The position numbers and the translations under genes are program-made. Positions 1,806 through 7,819 of a stretch of 17,432 nucleotides of DNA are shown piece after piece. The stretch covers positions 1 through 17,432 of the IMG/VR virus record IMGVR_UViG_2778261167_000008. One strand, given 5' to 3'. How positions within the stretch are numbered: position 1 is the stretch's first letter; each line of letters opens with the position of its first letter. Under the pieces are notes generated by a model. It worked only from the letters and a program-made list of their open reading frames with translations. It had not been told where the DNA came from and did not search any database. The DNA comes from a virus (Duplodnaviria > Heunggongvirae > Uroviricota > Caudoviricetes).

Positions 1806-2561
1806 ATGCAAGGCTGTGCTAATGATTTTGGCAAGCTGATCGGGAAAGTAGCTGTGCTACGCATGGCCTTTGGCTGCCCCGACGCAGTGCCAGCGCTTTC
1901 CGAGTGGAAGCGTCTCGGCGCTATGACGACCAAGGGCATCGACTATTCGATGAACACTATCAACTCCGAGGCAGATGATGCTAAAGGGCTAGTGGAGAAC
2001 CTGGTCAACAACATGGATCTGACGATCTCCGGTGAAGGGGAGTTTCGTAAATCTGATAAAGATAACGAGATCGGAGCATGGCGTCTGTCGAAGTACATCT
2101 TTGATGAAGTCCAGGCTGGTCGTCAGCCTAACCTGTGGGTACGTTTCGACTTTGCTGGAGAGAACGCTGGCACTTACATCCTGGGCTACATGAACACCAC
2201 GTCATGGTCTGGTGACTTCGGTACCAACGATATCTCTACCTTCTCCGGCGAGTGGAAGGTCTACGACGCCGACACCGTTGTGTTTGAGGTCGCTGACTCT
2301 ATCGCGGCCACTGGTGTAGAGGTTACCCCTGCAACTGCATCTTTGGTCGTTGGCGCAACCCAGCAACTGAGCGGCGCAGTTCAGCCAACCGATGCGACTA
2401 ACAAGGCGATCACCTGGACGACTTCGGCGGCATCTATCGCAACCGTCAGTTCAACCGGTCTGGTAACGGCCGTAGCCGCCGGAACCGCGACCATTACGGC
2501 AACAACCGCAGATGGTGACTTCACCGATACCTGCGCTGTTACCGTGACAGCCGCACCGTAA
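1806..2561 (+). CDS. Major tail protein with C-terminal bacterial Ig-like (Big_2) domain (lambda V-like)
   Basis: 251-aa ORF with SD GAGAGG 5 nt upstream. The C-terminal ~85 aa (VEVTPATASLVVGATQQLSGAVQPTDATNKAITWTTSAASIATVSSTGLVTAVAAGTATITATTADGDFTDTCAVTVT) matches the Big_2 signature; lambda gpV has the same architecture and size. Confidence 0.75.
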   Translation: MQGCANDFGKLIGKVAVLRMAFGCPDAVPALSEWKRLGAMTTKGIDYSMNTINSEADDAKGLVENLVNNMDLTISGEGEFRKSDKDNEIGAWRLSKYIFDEVQAGRQPNLWVRFDFAGENAGTYILGYMNTTSWSGDFGTNDISTFSGEWKVYDADTVVFEVADSIAATGVEVTPATASLVVGATQQLSGAVQPTDATNKAITWTTSAASIATVSSTGLVTAVAAGTATITATTADGDFTDTCAVTVTAAP

Positions 2562-2611
2562 TCACTACAAAGGGCGGCGTGCTGCCCTTGATACTGGTTA
2601 TGGAGAACGAT

Positions 2612-3355
2612 ATGACACCTTTGAAAGAGATTGGCGAGTGCCTGATTGGTTCTGGAAGCCGTGAATACTTCTTCCGCCCATCATTCCGTAACATGACGCG
2701 GATCGGCGAACCAGAGCATATCGTTCGCACTTTCTATGCGCTGTTCAATGACGATGTGGCAAAGATGCTTGAGGCGGCGCGAGAAATTCACAGTGCGTTA
2801 CCAGAGCATCAGCGCATATTTTACGCCTACTATTTCGGTGACGTTTCGCTGCCGCGCTGGGCACTTGATGCAGCAGGTTCTGCTGCGTTTGTGCGTGAGG
2901 CATTGCTTTCAGCTATTAACGTCATTCAGTCATGCTGTGACGAGGACGTTTCTGAACTGACAGGCTGGCACGAGCCATCACGTACTGGAAGGCGTGCATT
3001 TGTATGGCGCCGCGGCTTGCTCCCGCCTGAGAACCTTATTCTGATAGCTCAGTCACTGATCATGCATGGCATCATCGGCAGGGCAAAGGTTCGTAAGTTG
3101 CAGAAGCACGAAAGCAAGGAAACGACTCCTGAGTTTCATGCGACTGAATACATCATGGCAGCCCGCAATCACTTCGGTATCAGCAAGGAAGAGGCTATGG
3201 AACTCACTATGACCGAATTTGCGATGATGCTTAACGCCAAATACCCTGATCAGAAAGGCTTCACCAGGGAAGAGTACGACGCTGTTATGGACGATGACGA
3301 TCGCCGCTGGCAGGAAATGATTGAGCGCGAAAAATCAGCAAAGAAAGCCGCCTGA
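2612..3355 (+). CDS. Tail assembly chaperone (G/GT-like), apparently one continuous ORF
   Basis: Position between the major tail and tape measure genes; acidic C-terminus. SD GGAG at 2602-2605 supports ATG 2612 (the track's GTG 2579 and ATG 2600 are in-frame alternatives). No second overlapping frame was seen. Confidence 0.5.
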   Translation: MTPLKEIGECLIGSGSREYFFRPSFRNMTRIGEPEHIVRTFYALFNDDVAKMLEAAREIHSALPEHQRIFYAYYFGDVSLPRWALDAAGSAAFVREALLSAINVIQSCCDEDVSELTGWHEPSRTGRRAFVWRRGLLPPENLILIAQSLIMHGIIGRAKVRKLQKHESKETTPEFHATEYIMAARNHFGISKEEAMELTMTEFAMMLNAKYPDQKGFTREEYDAVMDDDDRRWQEMIEREKSAKKAA

Positions 3356-3427
3356 GTTAATAATGGATGTACCGTAATCGCCTGACCGGGCTTAATATGG
3401 CTCAACAATAAAACTCAGGTGATAAGG

Positions 3428-3802
3428 GTGAAGAAAATACTTTTGGCTTTGGTGATTCCACTGGTTCTGGCTGGCTGTAAGCCTGGCGAGGAAAAGGCCA
3501 TATCTCTGGCGAAATCTGAGGTTGCTGCAAATCTTAAAGACCCGGCCAGCGCACAGTTCCGGAACGTAAAAGTATCAAAGATGACTGATGCCGAAGATGG
3601 TCATGTCGTCGCTGTTGTCTGTGGAGAAATCAACGGTAAGAACGGTTTCGGTGCATATGCAGGGTTTCATCCATTCTTCGTTGAGCTGAACATGAAATCG
3701 ACAGGGATCTTCTCTAAAGGCGTCGATTATACGCTTGGAAAGCATTTCCTTAGCTCGAAAGATACGCCGCCGCCTCAGGCATACAAAGACCGATTCCAAT
3801 AG
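3428..3802 (+). CDS. Small secreted lipoprotein (cargo gene; function unknown)
   Basis: Starting at GTG 3428 gives MKKILLALVIPLVLAGC: a charged n-region, hydrophobic core and lipobox L-A-G-C, with K at +2 arguing against inner-membrane retention. SD AGGTGA at 3416-3421; GTG 3419 is an alternative start. GC is lower than the flanking tail genes and the gene has its own terminator. Confidence 0.7.
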   Translation: MKKILLALVIPLVLAGCKPGEEKAISLAKSEVAANLKDPASAQFRNVKVSKMTDAEDGHVVAVVCGEINGKNGFGAYAGFHPFFVELNMKSTGIFSKGVDYTLGKHFLSSKDTPPPQAYKDRFQ

Positions 3803-3818
3803 TCGACACGAATAACTA

Positions 3819-3843
3819 ACCCACCGCAAAGTGGGTTTTTTTA
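3819..3843 (+). terminator. Rho-independent terminator after the lipoprotein gene
   Basis: Hairpin ACCCAC-CGCAAA-GTGGGT followed by TTTTTTT, 17 nt after the TAG stop. Confidence 0.65.
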
Positions 3844-3856
3844 TGCCCGGAGAAAA

Positions 3857-6193
3857 GTGATGTCAGAGAAAGCAGGCGAGATTTATTACGACATCGAGGC
3901 CGATGTTTCTGGCTTGCTGAAGGCGCAGGGGAAGGCCAATAAGTCACTCGACTCAATCGGAAACTCTGCCGCCAACGCAGCCAAAAAGATGGACGAGCTG
4001 CAGACCAATATCAATCGCGTGGCTGGTGCTATTGCAGCATCTCTCGTTGTTGACTGGGGCAAGGCGTTTCTGGTTGCCGCTGACAACATGAGTCAGCTTA
4101 ACGCGCGCATTGAACGCCTGACAGGCAGCGCTGCGGCTGCATCACAGACGATGCAGAGCCTGATGCGTATCAGTTCGTCGACTGGCGGTTCGCTGCAGGA
4201 CACCACAAAGCTGTGGGAAACCCTCAGCACTGCTCTCCGCGATACCGGCGCAACGAACGGCCAGATTATTCAGCTCACCGAGACGCTTCAGAAAATCGGG
4301 CGCATCGGCGGATCCTCATCCGAAGAAATGGCTAATGCTCTTCGTCAGTTCGGCCAGTCAATTTCATCCGGAACTGTCAGGGCGGAGGAATTCAACTCCA
4401 TCCTTGAGCAGATGCCGGAACTGGCGCGCCAGATCGCCGCCGGTATGGGAGTCAGCATCGGAGAGTTGCGCCAGCTCATGCTGGACGGAAAGTTGACGGC
4501 AGAAGATGCGCTCAACGCTATCCAGAAGCAGACCGGATCAGTCAACGCTGAGTTCGAAAAGCTACCACGTACGCTTTCTCAGGCCAATACAGCGCTGACA
4601 AACTCATTCCTGTCGATGATCGACTCTGTTAACCAGGCGACTGGTGCCAGTAGTGGTCTGGTGGCAATAATCGACTCTATGTCAGCAGCACTAGATCGCC
4701 TGGTAGGAAAGGCGGCGTCGGCAGATGCTCAGATATCAGATTTGAACAGCACAGCGGAAATGTTCACCAGGCGCGCGCGCACTTGGTCATGGCTTGGGCT
4801 TGATGGTTGGGAAGCACAAAACAAAGCGCTTGCCGGTCTAAGCAATAAGGCCGCCTTGCTGGTTGGCGATCTGGCTGCTGTTTCCAAAGCATCACAGACC
4901 GCGGCTAACACAAAGCCGATTGAGATTAAAACTACAGGTTCCGCTACTGGAAGCAAAGCGAAGGGCGGAAAGTCAGCAGCTCAGAAAGAAGCTGAGCAGT
5001 ACGCTAAAGCGCAGGAGACGGTTAACCAAAAACTGGATGAGCTGAGGCAAAAGGCCGAGTTGTCAGCGGGCAGTGTTGGTGAGTTATCGAGAGCTCAGGC
5101 CGTGCTTAATGCACAGCAGTCTCTCGGTAATGATGCGACACAGGAACAGGTCATTCTGGCTGGGCAATACGCGGCTAAAGCCTGGGATAACGCCAACGCA
5201 TTGCGCGCCCAGGCAAAGGCAGAAAAGGAACGTACTGACGCTGCCAATAAATTCAGCGCTATCCAGGGTAAAACCAGTAAAACTGCCGGACTGGATAGCC
5301 AGTATCAGAAAGACATCGCGGATATCCAACAATACGCCCAACTTTACCCGCAGAAGATCGGAGAGGCTGAGGCGGCGCGCGCTGCTATCGAACAGCAATA
5401 CCGTGATCAGCGTAACGCGGCAATGTGGGAAGAATGGGCGCAGCAGAACGCGGCCACACAGGCAGCGGCTGCGGCTTTCGATTCACTAGGTTCGGTTGCC
5501 AGTAACGCGCTGACAGGAATCATCACAGGTAGCATGTCTGCCAGCGACGCAATGCGCAGTATAGGCATGACGGTCCTGAACAGCGTTGTTAATTCGTTCG
5601 TCCAGATGGGTATCGAGTGGGTTAAGTCTGCAATTATGGGACAGGCGGCACAAACGGCTGCTATTGGCACGGTGACAGCAGTGCAGACGGCAGCAGTGGC
5701 AACACAGACTGCTACCAGCACAGCGGCGGCGGCAACGACTGCGGCAGCTTGGACCCCGGCGGCGATCCTTTCTTCAATAGCCTCGATGGGTACTGCGGCG
5801 GCGATCGGTCTCGGCGCGGTGGCTGGCGTTATTGGAGCTAATCTGCTCGGCAAGCGCAAGAATGGCGGCCCGGTGAGTGCAGGTGGGATGTATCAGGTCG
5901 GCGAAGGAGGCATGCCTGAAATTTACCAGGCCAGTACCGGTAAGCAGTACATGATACCGGGCGACAACGGCAAGGTGATCAGCAACAAGGATATGACAGC
6001 AGGGGGTAGTGGCGGGGTGGTTATCAACATCCAGAACTACACGTCATCGTCCGTCGATGCTCAGGCTGGTACAGATGCAAACGGCGGGCTTACCGTTGAT
6101 GTCATCGTTGCTGACCTGAACAACGGCGGCCCAATCAGTAGCGCTATTACCAGCAACATGAACGTTAAACGCACGCCAAGAGGGCAGGGCTGA
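3857..6193 (+). CDS. Tail tape measure protein
   Basis: 778-aa ORF with a helical, Ala/Gln-rich N-terminal two-thirds and a hydrophobic Ala/Gly/Thr-rich segment near the C-terminus (AAQTAAIGTVTAVQTAAVATQTATSTAAAATTAAAW...GLGAVAGVIGANLLG). SD GGAG at 3849-3852; ATG 3860 may be the true start. About 0.15 nm per residue implies a tail near 115 nm. Confidence 0.85.
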   Translation: MMSEKAGEIYYDIEADVSGLLKAQGKANKSLDSIGNSAANAAKKMDELQTNINRVAGAIAASLVVDWGKAFLVAADNMSQLNARIERLTGSAAAASQTMQSLMRISSSTGGSLQDTTKLWETLSTALRDTGATNGQIIQLTETLQKIGRIGGSSSEEMANALRQFGQSISSGTVRAEEFNSILEQMPELARQIAAGMGVSIGELRQLMLDGKLTAEDALNAIQKQTGSVNAEFEKLPRTLSQANTALTNSFLSMIDSVNQATGASSGLVAIIDSMSAALDRLVGKAASADAQISDLNSTAEMFTRRARTWSWLGLDGWEAQNKALAGLSNKAALLVGDLAAVSKASQTAANTKPIEIKTTGSATGSKAKGGKSAAQKEAEQYAKAQETVNQKLDELRQKAELSAGSVGELSRAQAVLNAQQSLGNDATQEQVILAGQYAAKAWDNANALRAQAKAEKERTDAANKFSAIQGKTSKTAGLDSQYQKDIADIQQYAQLYPQKIGEAEAARAAIEQQYRDQRNAAMWEEWAQQNAATQAAAAAFDSLGSVASNALTGIITGSMSASDAMRSIGMTVLNSVVNSFVQMGIEWVKSAIMGQAAQTAAIGTVTAVQTAAVATQTATSTAAAATTAAAWTPAAILSSIASMGTAAAIGLGAVAGVIGANLLGKRKNGGPVSAGGMYQVGEGGMPEIYQASTGKQYMIPGDNGKVISNKDMTAGGSGGVVINIQNYTSSSVDAQAGTDANGGLTVDVIVADLNNGGPISSAITSNMNVKRTPRGQG

Positions 6194-6690
6194 TGCCAAT
6201 TATCGACTATCCCGACTGGCTGCCACTGGCGCAGAAGGCCAGCAAAAACATGACGCTCGATACCGGGTTCCAGACCGATCAGCCAGCGGTCGGCCCGGCT
6301 ATCTTCCAGAACCTTACTGACGACCTGAAAGTGACCTGGTCACTGACATGGATCTTCACGCTGGACCAGGAGCGCGCTTTCCAGCAGTGGCTGCGCAGCC
6401 CGAACTATCTCAACAGGGGCCTGAACTGGTTCCGTATGAATGTCAACCTTGGCGGCAGTGGCCTGCAGTTGCAGGAGCTTCATTTCACACAGATGCCGGT
6501 GCAAACCAGTATCGACGGCGGGGTGGTGACCTGGACTGGGACCGTTATCGCGAACCACCTCTACAACTCCGATGACGAGTTTGATGACGTTATTGTTGAA
6601 CTGCCGCCGCCTTGGGATTCGTGGCTTGATATCGTGGTGACGGGTTATCCGGACGGGCGCGATCCGGAAAGTCTGCCTCGCGTTGTTTGA
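6193..6690 (+). CDS. Minor tail protein (lambda M-like, distal tail)
   Basis: 165-aa ORF whose ATG overlaps the tape measure TGA (ATGA coupling); position directly after the tape measure. Similarity to gpM is a weak pattern match from memory. Confidence 0.5.
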   Translation: MPIIDYPDWLPLAQKASKNMTLDTGFQTDQPAVGPAIFQNLTDDLKVTWSLTWIFTLDQERAFQQWLRSPNYLNRGLNWFRMNVNLGGSGLQLQELHFTQMPVQTSIDGGVVTWTGTVIANHLYNSDDEFDDVIVELPPPWDSWLDIVVTGYPDGRDPESLPRVV

Positions 6691-6809: not shown

Positions 6810-7349
6810 ATGAACTTTATTACTCCTCAATATCTTTCTGAGTGTTTTGTCTATAACAAAAATACAGGGGAGCTATTCTGGAAAGCTCGACCTATTCACC
6901 ATTTCAACAGCTTAAAAGGTCAGCAAACTTTCAATGGGCAGTTTGCCGGGAAAAAAGCTGGAAGAGCAAATAATCGCGGTTATTTCAGAATTGCTATTAG
7001 TGGCAAGGAGATTCTAAACCACAGAATAGTTATAGCCTTGGAGACAGGCGTGATGCCTACTGACGAAGTGGATCATATCAATGGGATCAGAACCGACAAT
7101 AGGTACGAAAATTTAAGAGTGGTCTCGCGGCAGACAAATGCCAAAAACATGAAATTAAATATCAATAATACCAGCGGGATATCTGGCGTATCTTGGAATA
7201 CAAGAAAATCAAAATGGAAATCAGTAATCTGGATGAATTGTGTTGAAAAGCATCTTGGGTACTTCGATTCCATTATTGACGCCTTCAATGCCAGGGTAAT
7301 AGCAGAGGTAAACATGGGTTACCATAAAAATCATGGAAGGATCCCCTGA
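6810..7349 (+). CDS. HNH homing-type endonuclease with AP2-like DNA-binding region
   Basis: 179-aa ORF, markedly AT-rich against GC-rich flanks, with SD GAGG 5 nt upstream. Contains HNH core EVDHINGIRTDNRYENLRVVSRQTNAKN and a downstream GISGVSWNTRKSKWKSVIW segment typical of phage HNH-AP2 endonucleases. Confidence 0.8.
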   Translation: MNFITPQYLSECFVYNKNTGELFWKARPIHHFNSLKGQQTFNGQFAGKKAGRANNRGYFRIAISGKEILNHRIVIALETGVMPTDEVDHINGIRTDNRYENLRVVSRQTNAKNMKLNINNTSGISGVSWNTRKSKWKSVIWMNCVEKHLGYFDSIIDAFNARVIAEVNMGYHKNHGRIP

Positions 7350-7819
7350 TGCCATCGTTCCGTCAATATAAGCAGCAGCGCCCGACGCGAGGGCTATACG
7401 ACACCATCACGTTCTACCATCCATCCTTTGGCTATGTGCGCCTTGTCGATAAGCAGTTCTTCCCTAAGACGCTCGGCGGCCAGTCCTACACGCCAGCGCG
7501 CTTTGAAATCGAAGAGAGCCAACAGAGCGGCACGCCGGTGATCGACGCGACCGTGAAGCTTGGGCGGCTGTCGTCGGACATCAAGGCGCTGATGAAACAG
7601 TGGAAGGGGGCCGCCAGACTGACGGCCATCACGGCAACACGGCAAATCTTCGACAGCGGTGATATGTCGGTACCGATAAAGTCTTGGGAGTTGTACGTCA
7701 AGACGATAGATATAGACGCTGATGCCGCTTCTGTGACGCTTTCTGTCACTAACCCGCTGAACAACAACATAGGCCGACTTTATGATCCGCAGGAATACAC
7801 CGGGCTGCAGTACCTCTGA
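7349..7819 (+). CDS. Minor tail protein (lambda L-like N-terminal domain)
   Basis: 156-aa ORF whose ATG overlaps the HNH TGA; SD GGAAGG at 7335-7340. Position and a loose resemblance to the gpL N-terminus; the Cys-rich C-terminal domain of lambda L is absent. Confidence 0.5.
   Translation: MPSFRQYKQQRPTRGLYDTITFYHPSFGYVRLVDKQFFPKTLGGQSYTPARFEIEESQQSGTPVIDATVKLGRLSSDIKALMKQWKGAARLTAITATRQIFDSGDMSVPIKSWELYVKTIDIDADAASVTLSVTNPLNNNIGRLYDPQEYTGLQYL

What the first reader, a model, noticed from the sequence alone, without database searches (positions are those of the whole stretch)
2562..3355. Tail assembly chaperone encoded as one continuous ORF with no visible frameshift partner
Established knowledge: most long-tailed phages make G and a frameshifted GT product from two overlapping frames before the tape measure gene. 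Seen in sequence: only one long frame (2612-3355) occupies this position, and I found no canonical slippery heptamer in it. Inference: either both chaperone domains are permanently fused, or the programmed frameshift has been lost.
Basis: partly seen in the sequence, partly recalled or inferred. Interest (0 to 1): 0.35.

Follow-up and report, generated by a model that had tools for sequence, protein, structure and literature searches.

The report
Single-ORF tail assembly chaperone (DUF6246)
The gene between the tail-tube and tape-measure genes of this prophage is an ordinary member of a widespread family (DUF6246) that always sits in the chaperone slot as one reading frame, apparently with both chaperone parts joined, so no frameshift has been lost here.

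Summary
ORF 2612-3355 (+, 247 aa) is the only conserved gene between the major tail gene (1806-2561) and the tape measure gene (3857-6193). It has no XXXYYYZ heptamer in any phase, and both other frames are full of stops.

The "lost frameshift" reading fails. The protein is a full-length member of Pfam DUF6246 / PHROG 791. In 327 phage records and 85 fetched loci the homologue is one uninterrupted ORF of 205-247 aa in the same slot. Slippery heptamers in relatives are sporadic and not conserved, and synonymous diversity across 36 close alleles shows no trough at the domain junction.

The "permanently fused" reading is supported at family level. Among 117 diverse members, 21 weakly match Phage_TAC_6 and 6 match Phage_TAC_11. 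These two families are the adjacent chaperone genes of gene-transfer-agent tail clusters. A profile comparison aligns window aa 171-233 with the whole TAC_6 domain (P=1.6e-4, 0/150 shuffles). The N-terminal match to TAC_11 is weaker. No solved structure matches.

One published genome (Klebsiella phage KlebP_265) already labels its homologue a tail assembly chaperone.

Verdict: an ordinary member of a known family, with low to moderate interest.

The parts
1806..2561 (+). Major tail (tube) protein gene with a C-terminal Ig-like domain; upstream neighbour of the finding
   Evidence: phrog_853 'major tail protein' 7e-101; Pfam Big_2 2e-21 at aa 168-245
2556..2603 (+). Strong RNA stem-loop spanning the major tail gene's stop codon and reaching the first two G of the next gene's Shine-Dalgarno. 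Inferred to damp downstream expression or stabilise the tail-tube message.
   Evidence: MFE -24.3 kcal/mol, z = -4.7, 0 of 200 shuffles fold as well. Not called as a terminator because no T-run follows. Phage mEp010 has an annotated terminator at the same junction.
2612..3355 (+). The finding: a single-frame ORF of 247 aa, a DUF6246 family protein, inferred to be the tail assembly chaperone
   Evidence: Pfam PF19759 DUF6246 1.6e-71 (240 bits against a cut-off of 27); phrog_791 3e-88 over aa 1-242. No slippery heptamer and no open alternative frame.
2612..3115 (+). N-terminal domain, aa 1-168: beta-hairpin, helices, a second hairpin and a long helix. Inferred to be the G-like part that binds the tape measure protein.
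   Evidence: AlphaFold2 pLDDT about 70-90 over aa 10-160, with a low-confidence linker at 169-176. Aa 1-33 align with the N-terminus of Phage_TAC_11: hhalign P=0.01, score 21.0 against shuffles 11.9±2.3, 0 of 150 reach it. A Pfam TAC_11 hit on member P0140 lies at aa 7-30.
3122..3310 (+). C-terminal module, aa 171-233, resembling Phage_TAC_6. Inferred to be the T-like part that recruits the major tail protein.
   Evidence: hhalign of the family profile A2 against a 120-sequence TAC_6 alignment: 62 columns, P=1.6e-4, score 30.7 against shuffles 10.7±2.0, 0 of 150 reach it. 21 of 117 members hit PF09550, best E 2.1e-5. phrog_29657 (59 aa) matches aa 191-238.
3419..3802 (+). Lipoprotein gene (127 aa) inserted between the chaperone gene and the tape measure gene; an accessory gene, not part of the chaperone
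   Evidence: Sequence ...LVLAGC and a sub-threshold Pfam LPAM_1 lipid-attachment match (E 0.0028; 18.4 bits, cut-off 20); phrog_2320, unknown function. Absent from L014, L024, L031, L039, L043, L044 and L054.
3818..3837 (+). Intrinsic-terminator-like hairpin followed by a T-run, closing the lipoprotein insertion
3857..6193 (+). Tail length tape measure protein gene; downstream partner that defines the chaperone slot
   Evidence: phrog_1538 1.4e-194; Pfam TMP_3 5.9e-58

Best explanation
ORF 2612-3355 encodes this prophage's tail assembly chaperone, and it belongs to the DUF6246 family. In this family the two functional parts, which lambda-type phages encode in two overlapping frames (G and the frameshift extension T), lie in one frame. 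The N-terminal domain of about 165 aa is the G-like part and is inferred to coat the tape measure protein. A short flexible linker follows. The C-terminal module of about 60 aa is the T-like part, a distant relative of Phage_TAC_6, and is inferred to recruit the major tail protein. Translation gives one 28.5-kDa product by ordinary decoding, so every chaperone subunit carries the T-like module. The amount made relative to tail-tube protein is probably set by ordinary means, such as the strong hairpin that partly covers its ribosome binding site. Shown here: family membership, single-frame architecture across the family, conserved gene position, and remote similarity to TAC_6. Inferred: the chaperone activity, the binding partners and the role of the hairpin.
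For: (1) Position. The order is tail terminator, major tail, this ORF, tape measure, tail-tip genes. The order major tail, DUF6246, tape measure recurs in CobraSix, Vi II-E1, mEp010, PAShipCat1, SPN3UB, pYD21-A and KlebP_265. The stop often abuts or overlaps the tape measure start.
(2) No other candidate. The only other ORF in the slot is a dispensable lipoprotein insertion.
(3) Single frame is the family rule. 85 of 85 loci give one HSP; 84 resolve to a single ORF of 205-247 aa, and L055 is cut off by its contig end. 321 of 327 phage records match in one piece. The family has 445 clusters at 50% identity, and most of the 150 listed representatives are 180-240 aa.
(4) No hidden recoding. There is no heptamer in the window. 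Heptamers in relatives are sporadic and sit at different codons. Synonymous diversity across 36 close alleles shows no trough at the domain junction and dips only over the last ~20 codons.
(5) Link to chaperone families. The two most recurrent weak Pfam hits among 117 members are Phage_TAC_6 (21 members, best 2.1e-5) and Phage_TAC_11 (6 members, best 2.3e-4). They fall at the C- and N-terminus respectively. These two families are adjacent genes between the major tail and tape measure genes in a Rhodobacterales gene-transfer-agent cluster, with TAC_6 in the -1 frame. hhalign gives P=1.6e-4 for TAC_6 and P=0.01 for TAC_11, and both scores exceed all 150 column shuffles.
(6) Independent annotation. 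The KlebP_265 homologue (38% identical, E 1e-50) is deposited as 'tail assembly chaperone protein' and is listed as a core gene of its phage group (PMC11769527).
Against: The window protein on its own matches no chaperone family. Pfam reports only DUF6246, and my TAC_6 model scores it at E=0.22. The hits listed individually are below Pfam's cut-offs. The TAC_11 similarity covers only about 30 residues. By hmmsearch it is barely above a reversed-sequence control (32 against 18 hits). Foldseek found no solved structure with E<=0.001. In BFVD only family members were significant, and the 'tail assembly chaperone' hits had E about 0.5-1.7. A profile search of PDB sequences found nothing. The C-terminal model has low confidence. 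In lambda a large excess of G over GT is reported as crucial (PMC5009743), so a chaperone made only as the long form would have to work differently. There are no experimental data.
Confidence: 0.7

Rival explanations
1. Two chaperone forms are still made from this single frame by a non-canonical route. Candidates are proteolysis at the flexible linker (aa about 169-176), internal initiation near M196 or M200, or low-level slippage into a nearby stop that gives a G-only product, as in dnaX.
For: The linker has low model confidence. SD-like purine runs precede M196 and M200. PHROG 29657 is a 59-aa family equal to aa 191-238, so the C-terminal module exists as a separate ORF call in some genomes. 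G GGA AAG occurs at codon 110 in three relatives, with a stop 2 codons later. One contig, L169, has an in-frame TGA exactly at the domain boundary. T4-like phages are reported to make their chaperone proteins without frameshifting; this rests on the title of Vladimirov et al. 2022 as cited in PMC10885494, because the paper itself is not held.
Against: No slippery site is conserved, and the window has none. Synonymous diversity shows no constrained patch at the junction. The purine runs are explained by the conserved residues S-K/R-E-E-A. M200 aligns with a structural position of TAC_6 (LTMTEF against LTPAEL). L169 also carries a frameshifted tape measure gene, so it is probably a decayed or mis-assembled copy. 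L170, another apparently split copy, is a C-to-T-converted sequencing artefact.
Confidence: 0.12
2. The protein is not a chaperone. It would be some other tail-module protein, such as a minor structural or regulatory protein. These phages would then assemble tails without a G/GT-type chaperone, or with one encoded elsewhere.
For: Pfam and PHROGs list the family as of unknown function. Several records call it 'putative tail protein'. No fold match to solved chaperones was found. The N-terminal domain is larger than typical G proteins: about 165 aa, against 106 aa for TAC_11.
Against: It strictly occupies the chaperone slot in every lineage examined. The similarity to TAC_6 is specific and collinear. 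No alternative chaperone candidate lies in the tail module.
Confidence: 0.14
3. A recent event in this prophage (an indel or fusion) merged a former G/GT pair, or the frameshift signal has decayed, so the gene is degenerating.
For: None beyond the absence of a slippery site.
Against: The same single-frame architecture occurs in relatives down to about 22-25% identity from Salmonella, Klebsiella, Pseudomonas, Vibrio and Aeromonas phages, including lytic isolates. Across close alleles nonsynonymous diversity is about a fifth of synonymous over the whole length, which indicates purifying selection.
Confidence: 0.02

Closest known systems
Klebsiella phage KlebP_265 gp32, deposited as 'tail assembly chaperone protein' (XKC24223.1; PMC11769527); more generally Pfam DUF6246 / PHROG 791
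   Same: 38% identity over 224 aa, E 1e-50. A single ORF of 235 aa that abuts the tape measure gene. Same family, same slot, same architecture.
   Different: It comes from a lytic phage of a different group, with several small genes inserted between the major tail gene and the chaperone gene. The window copy has a longer variable insert at about aa 48-100, and a lipoprotein gene is inserted downstream.
Bacteriophage lambda gpG / gpGT (tail assembly chaperone made by a -1 programmed frameshift)
   Same: Same gene position between the major tail gene (V-like, with an Ig domain) and the tape measure gene (H-like). The total length is similar to GT, stated from my own knowledge as about 280 aa. 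Two-part logic is inferred: one part binds the tape measure, the other recruits tube protein (lambda mechanism from PMC5009743).
   Different: No second frame, no slippery heptamer and no short form. No detectable sequence or fold similarity was shown here. The roughly 30:1 excess of short form reported as crucial for lambda cannot arise by the same route.
Gene-transfer-agent type chaperone pair: Phage_TAC_11 (RcGTA g10-like, PF11836) plus Phage_TAC_6 (rcc01693 family, PF09550 / TIGR02216)
   Same: Remote, collinear profile similarity: the N-terminus to TAC_11 and aa 171-233 to TAC_6, including the motif G[IL]S..EA..LT..E[FL]. Same slot between the major tail and tape measure genes, and a similar downstream tail-tip module with an NlpC/P60 gene.
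   Different: The gene-transfer-agent versions are two separate genes of 106 and 69 aa, with TAC_6 in the -1 frame overlapping by one base. Here the parts are fused in frame, and the N-domain is about 60 aa longer. The similarity is below Pfam thresholds.
T4-like tail assembly chaperones (Vladimirov, Gautam and Davidson 2022, known here only from its citation in PMC10885494 and PMC12846349)
   Same: A precedent that long-tailed phages can make their chaperone proteins without ribosomal frameshifting.
   Different: Those are myoviruses with unrelated genes. The paper was not available, so no detailed comparison was possible.

Membership tests
Pfam DUF6246 (PF19759) / PHROG 791 | Full-length match to the family model above the curated cut-off | tested here: met
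   240.4 bits against a cut-off of 27, profile positions 1-185 of 185. phrog_791 3e-88 over profile positions 1-225 of 227.
Pfam DUF6246 (PF19759) / PHROG 791 | A single ORF of about 200-250 aa lying between the major tail and tape measure genes | tested here: met
   Window layout. 84 of the 85 fetched loci resolve to a single ORF of 205-247 aa; L055 is cut off by its contig end. Annotated phages.
Lambda-type G/GT chaperone (two frames, programmed frameshift) | Gene located between the major tail protein and tape measure protein genes | tested here: met
Lambda-type G/GT chaperone (two frames, programmed frameshift) | A second ORF in the -1 or +1 frame that overlaps the 3' end and extends beyond the G stop | tested here: not met
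   The -1 frame is open for at most 29 codons. All frames are closed within about 30 nt after 3355.
Lambda-type G/GT chaperone (two frames, programmed frameshift) | A slippery sequence (X XXY YYZ or equivalent) conserved near the end of G | tested here: not met
   None in the window in any phase. In 76 distinct relatives the heptamers are sporadic, sit at different codons, and are absent from 28. No synonymous-site trough at the domain junction.
Lambda-type G/GT chaperone (two frames, programmed frameshift) | Absent from mature virions; binds the tape measure (G part) and the major tail protein (T part); required for tail assembly | not testable with these tools
   No proteomic or genetic data for any family member were found.
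Phage_TAC_6 (PF09550, rcc01693 family; T-position chaperone gene) | Sequence match to the family model | tested here: inconclusive
   The window protein alone gives no Pfam hit and E=0.22 against my TAC_6 model. At family level, 21 of 117 members hit PF09550 (best 2.1e-5). hhalign gives P=1.6e-4, z about 10 against shuffles. 209 of 271 members give C-terminal hits, against 21 in the reversed control.
Phage_TAC_11 (PF11836, GTA gp10; G-position chaperone gene) | Sequence match to the family model | tested here: inconclusive
   6 of 117 members hit, best 2.3e-4. hhalign P=0.01 over about 32 N-terminal columns, z about 4. The hmmsearch count is little above the reversed control, 32 against 18.
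Solved tail-assembly-chaperone folds (for example HK97 gp10; the name is recalled from memory) | Structural similarity of the predicted model to a solved chaperone | tested here: not met
   Foldseek against PDB: 0 matches with E<=0.001, best E 2.9. The model is only moderately confident, pLDDT 72.

The most novel reading that the evidence does not exclude
DUF6246 phages are a large natural group of siphoviruses whose tail assembly chaperone works only as the long, GT-like form. The G-like and T-like parts are permanently fused, and there is no excess of a short form. If so, the roughly 30:1 G:GT ratio that lambda needs is not a general requirement of tape-measure-guided tail assembly. Dosage would be set by other means, for example the hairpin over the ribosome binding site.
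Probability: 0.45. Interest if true: 0.45.

Novelty: new member of a known kind. Interest (0 to 1): 0.25.

Why it matters
For this window it matters little. The gene is an intact, typical member of an established family, and nothing has been lost.

At family level the analysis gives a reasoned function for a "domain of unknown function" (DUF6246 / PHROG 791) that annotation pipelines leave as hypothetical in hundreds of Salmonella, Klebsiella, Escherichia, Enterobacter and Pseudomonas phage genomes. It should stop annotators looking for a frameshift that is not there.

It also points to a natural test of whether the G:GT ratio is a general requirement of tail assembly.

Tried and rejected
- **PDB sequence search.** A profile search of alignment A1 gave only chance PAS-domain hits at E about 1.2.
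- **Foldseek against PDB.** Nothing significant.
- **Foldseek against BFVD.** Only unnamed family members were significant. Hits named "tail assembly chaperone" had E 0.5-1.7 and were not used as evidence.
- **PHROGs and NCBIfam scans of 117 members.** The chaperone links were negligible: phrog_441 in one member, TIGR02216 in two.
- **Viral-contig scan for more diverse TAC_6 sequences.** It returned only close gene-transfer-agent-like copies and did not improve the profile.
- **Pseudomonas phage DMS3 gp40.** I tested whether this annotated chaperone is a DUF6246 member. It is not. DMS3 has a second frame open from inside gp40 up to the tape measure start, as in a two-frame G/T layout.
- **Split versions of the family.** I looked among short database representatives. 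L169 has an in-frame TGA but also a broken tape measure gene. L170 is a C-to-T-converted artefact. L171 is a 687-bp contig fragment. None is a credible G/GT arrangement, but only 3 of about 30 short representatives were checked.
- **The lipoprotein ORF 3419-3802 as a T partner.** Rejected: it has a lipobox, its own terminator, and is absent from close relatives.
- **Literature.** "DUF6246" occurs in one unrelated paper. The T4-like chaperone paper is not held. The vB_YenS_P400 paper has no tail-gene analysis.

Full report
**The observation**

The window carries a siphovirus tail module on the + strand:
- tail completion gene (999-1367)
- tail terminator (1364-1747, Pfam Phage_tail_terminator_3)
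- major tail protein with an Ig-like Big_2 domain (1806-2561)
- the ORF in question (2612-3355)
- a small lipoprotein gene (3419-3802)
- the tape measure gene (3857-6193)
- tail-tip genes

The mechanical ORF starts at GTG 2579. ATG 2612 has GGAG six bases upstream, and most homologues begin MTP..., so 2612 is the likely start. A script found no XXXYYYZ heptamer in any phase of the ORF. The -1 frame is never open for more than 29 codons, and the +1 frame is open only from 2694 to 2958. All three frames meet stops within about 30 nt after 3355.

**What the protein is**

It is a full-length member of Pfam DUF6246 (1.6e-71; 240 bits against a cut-off of 27) and of PHROG 791. Both are listed as of unknown function. 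The family is sizeable:
- tblastn finds it in 327 of 50,697 phage records, from Salmonella, Klebsiella, Pseudomonas, Escherichia, Vibrio, Aeromonas and others. 321 of them cover at least 80% of the protein in one piece.
- An exhaustive profile search finds 445 clusters at 50% identity, and most of the 150 listed representatives are 180-240 aa long.

**Single frame is the family norm**

I fetched 85 loci: five annotated phages and 80 viral contigs. All gave one tblastn HSP. 84 resolve to one uninterrupted ORF of 205-247 aa; the other (L055) is cut off by its contig end. The order major tail, DUF6246, tape measure holds in CobraSix, Vi II-E1, mEp010, PAShipCat1, SPN3UB, pYD21-A and KlebP_265. 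Often the stop abuts or overlaps the tape measure start.

In-frame slippery heptamers do occur in some relatives, but at scattered codons. They usually lead to a stop within a few dozen codons, and 28 of 76 distinct genes have none. Across 36 distinct alleles of the window's own clade (83% nucleotide identity or more), synonymous diversity has no trough at the domain junction. It is 0.20-0.26 around codons 160-175, against a mean of 0.25. It dips only over the last ~20 codons (0.11-0.12). Nonsynonymous diversity is about one fifth of synonymous along the whole length. The whole ORF is therefore read in one frame under purifying selection.

**The lipoprotein ORF is not a partner**

ORF 3419-3802 has a lipobox (…LVLAGC) and is followed by a hairpin with a T-run at 3818-3837. 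It is missing from seven relatives whose chaperone-slot protein is 91-95% identical. In those the gap to the tape measure gene is 33-53 nt instead of about 501. Other lineages also carry inserted genes at this junction: mEp010 and SPN3UB.

**Is it a chaperone, and is it a fusion?**

Direct searches were negative.
- No PDB sequence match.
- The AlphaFold2 model has moderate confidence: pLDDT 72, a good N-terminal domain over aa 10-160, a weak linker at 169-176 and a weak C-terminus.
- Foldseek found nothing in the PDB. In BFVD only family members were significant.

Scanning 117 diverse members one by one against Pfam gave a pattern. After DUF6246 itself, the two most recurrent families were Phage_TAC_6 (21 members, best E 2.1e-5) and Phage_TAC_11 (6 members, best 2.3e-4). 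No other family was hit more than once. In individual proteins the TAC_11 hit lies at aa 7-30 and the TAC_6 hit at aa 143-175 of 208.

I then collected genuine sequences: 120 of TAC_6 and 120 of TAC_11. The TAC_6 query was written from memory, and the hits are real PF09550 proteins 63-87% identical to it. In a Fuscovulum gene-transfer-agent cluster these two families are adjacent genes between the major tail and tape measure genes. TAC_6 lies in the -1 frame and overlaps by one base. They therefore occupy the G and T positions.

The profile comparisons gave the following.
- **TAC_6.** Family columns corresponding to window aa 171-233 align with essentially the whole TAC_6 domain: 62 columns, P=1.6e-4. 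The shared motif is G[IL]S..EA..LT..E[FL]. The score of 30.7 compares with 10.7±2.0 for 150 column-shuffled controls (maximum 17.4), and with P=0.69 for the reversed template.
- **TAC_11.** The match is weaker: aa 1-33 against the N-terminus, P=0.01. The score of 21.0 compares with 11.9±2.3, and none of 150 shuffles reaches it.
- **hmmsearch.** 209 of 271 family proteins give a C-terminal TAC_6 hit, against 21 for reversed sequences. The TAC_11 count is barely above its control, 32 against 18.

The T-like assignment of the C-terminal module is therefore reasonably supported. The G-like assignment of the N-domain rests mainly on position and a short collinear match.

**Independent annotation**

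[quoted passage not shown] It is deposited as "tail assembly chaperone protein" and is 38% identical to the window protein (E 1e-50). Its authors annotated the genome with InterProScan and HHpred, and they list this protein as a core gene of their phage group (PMC11769527). The chaperone label for this family is therefore not new. The fused G-T reading and the link to TAC_6 and TAC_11 are, as far as the held literature shows, not discussed ("DUF6246" appears in one unrelated paper).

**How it most likely works**

One product of 28.5 kDa is made by ordinary translation. The N-domain is inferred to coat the tape measure protein, and the C-terminal module to recruit tube subunits. This follows the lambda model, in which G binds the tape measure, T binds the tube protein, and neither is in the virion (PMC5009743). 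These steps are inferred, not shown.

Lambda needs about 30 G per GT, so a chaperone made only as the long form implies a different stoichiometric logic. A strong stem-loop (2556-2603, -24.3 kcal/mol, z -4.7) spans the tube gene's stop codon and part of the next Shine-Dalgarno. It may hold chaperone expression well below that of tube protein. mEp010 has an annotated terminator at the same junction.

Frameshift-free chaperone genes are not unheard of. [quoted passage not shown] Phage RcZahn lacks clear frameshift signals (PMC8601537). T4-like phages are reported to use another mechanism, known here only from a citation.

**Rivals**
- **Two products by another route** (proteolysis at the linker, internal initiation, or slippage into a stop). 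This cannot be excluded without protein data, but no conserved signal supports it.
- **Apparent split copies.** One has an in-frame TGA exactly at the domain boundary, in a contig whose tape measure gene is also broken. One is a C-to-T-converted artefact. One is a 687-bp fragment.
- **Non-chaperone function.** Disfavoured by the strict synteny and the TAC_6 link.
- **Recent loss in this prophage.** Refuted by the comparative data.

**Verdict**

This is a new member of a known kind, with modest family-level interest as a probable natural fused chaperone. Interest 0.25.

Noticed in passing
window 3419-3837: A 127-aa lipoprotein gene (phrog_2320, unknown function) with its own terminator is inserted between the chaperone and tape measure genes. 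It is present in most relatives whose chaperone-slot protein is 90-96% identical, but absent from seven (L014, L024, L031, L039, L043, L044, L054). Other lineages (mEp010, SPN3UB) carry different inserted genes at the same junction, so this is a hotspot for accessory genes. The lipoprotein may be a superinfection-exclusion protein; this was not tested.
   Followed up: partly
window 2556-2603: A strong RNA hairpin (-24.3 kcal/mol, z -4.7) covers the major tail gene's stop codon and the first two G of the chaperone gene's Shine-Dalgarno. It may attenuate or stabilise the message and so set the chaperone-to-tube ratio. Phage mEp010 has an annotated terminator at the equivalent place.
   Followed up: partly
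window 6810-7349: An HNH endonuclease gene (phrog_99, Pfam HNH_3) sits between the first tail-tip gene (6193-6690) and the minor tail gene (7349-7819). It is a probable homing-endonuclease insertion inside the tail operon. CobraSix has an HNH gene elsewhere in its structural module.
   Followed up: no
window 12769-13908 (+) and 14689-15852 (-): Two Acyl_transf_3 family acyltransferase genes flank the end of the tail module, just after a tailspike gene (10720-12756, Tail_spike_N). They are candidate O-antigen-modifying lysogenic-conversion genes. A truncated tail-fibre-assembly fragment (14111-14383, matching only the C-terminal part of Caudo_TAP) lies between them.
   Followed up: no
L169 3409-3417 (Logan ERR4007762 contig): One family member has an in-frame TGA exactly at the junction of the N-domain and the T-like module (…HGIIG*AKL…), in place of the Lys found there in most relatives. 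The frame continues intact afterwards. This could mimic a short/long pair by readthrough. However, the same contig has a frameshifted tape measure gene, so decay or assembly error is more likely.
   Followed up: partly
P0143 (443 aa, representative library): A database protein joins an unmatched 92-aa N-terminal stretch, DUF6246 residues up to about 258, and a C-terminal stretch that reads like a tape-measure N-terminus (by eye, not tested) in one ORF. It is probably a frameshifted or chimeric assembly, but it would be a chaperone-tape measure fusion if real.
   Followed up: no
L170 (Logan SRR18107613 contig): This relative's sequence shows systematic C-to-T conversion (FFRPSF reads as FFWLLF, and Gln codons become stops). 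It is evidently from a bisulfite-type or deaminated library. Such contigs generate spurious 'split' family members in protein databases.
   Followed up: yes
L086 3681-4210 (Fuscovulum blasticum gene-transfer-agent cluster): The chaperone pair TAC_11 / TAC_6 overlaps as TGATG, with TAC_6 in the -1 frame but with its own ATG. A GGGGGG run lies about 70 nt upstream of the TAC_11 stop. Whether TAC_6 is made by frameshift, by coupled reinitiation, or both was not examined.
   Followed up: no
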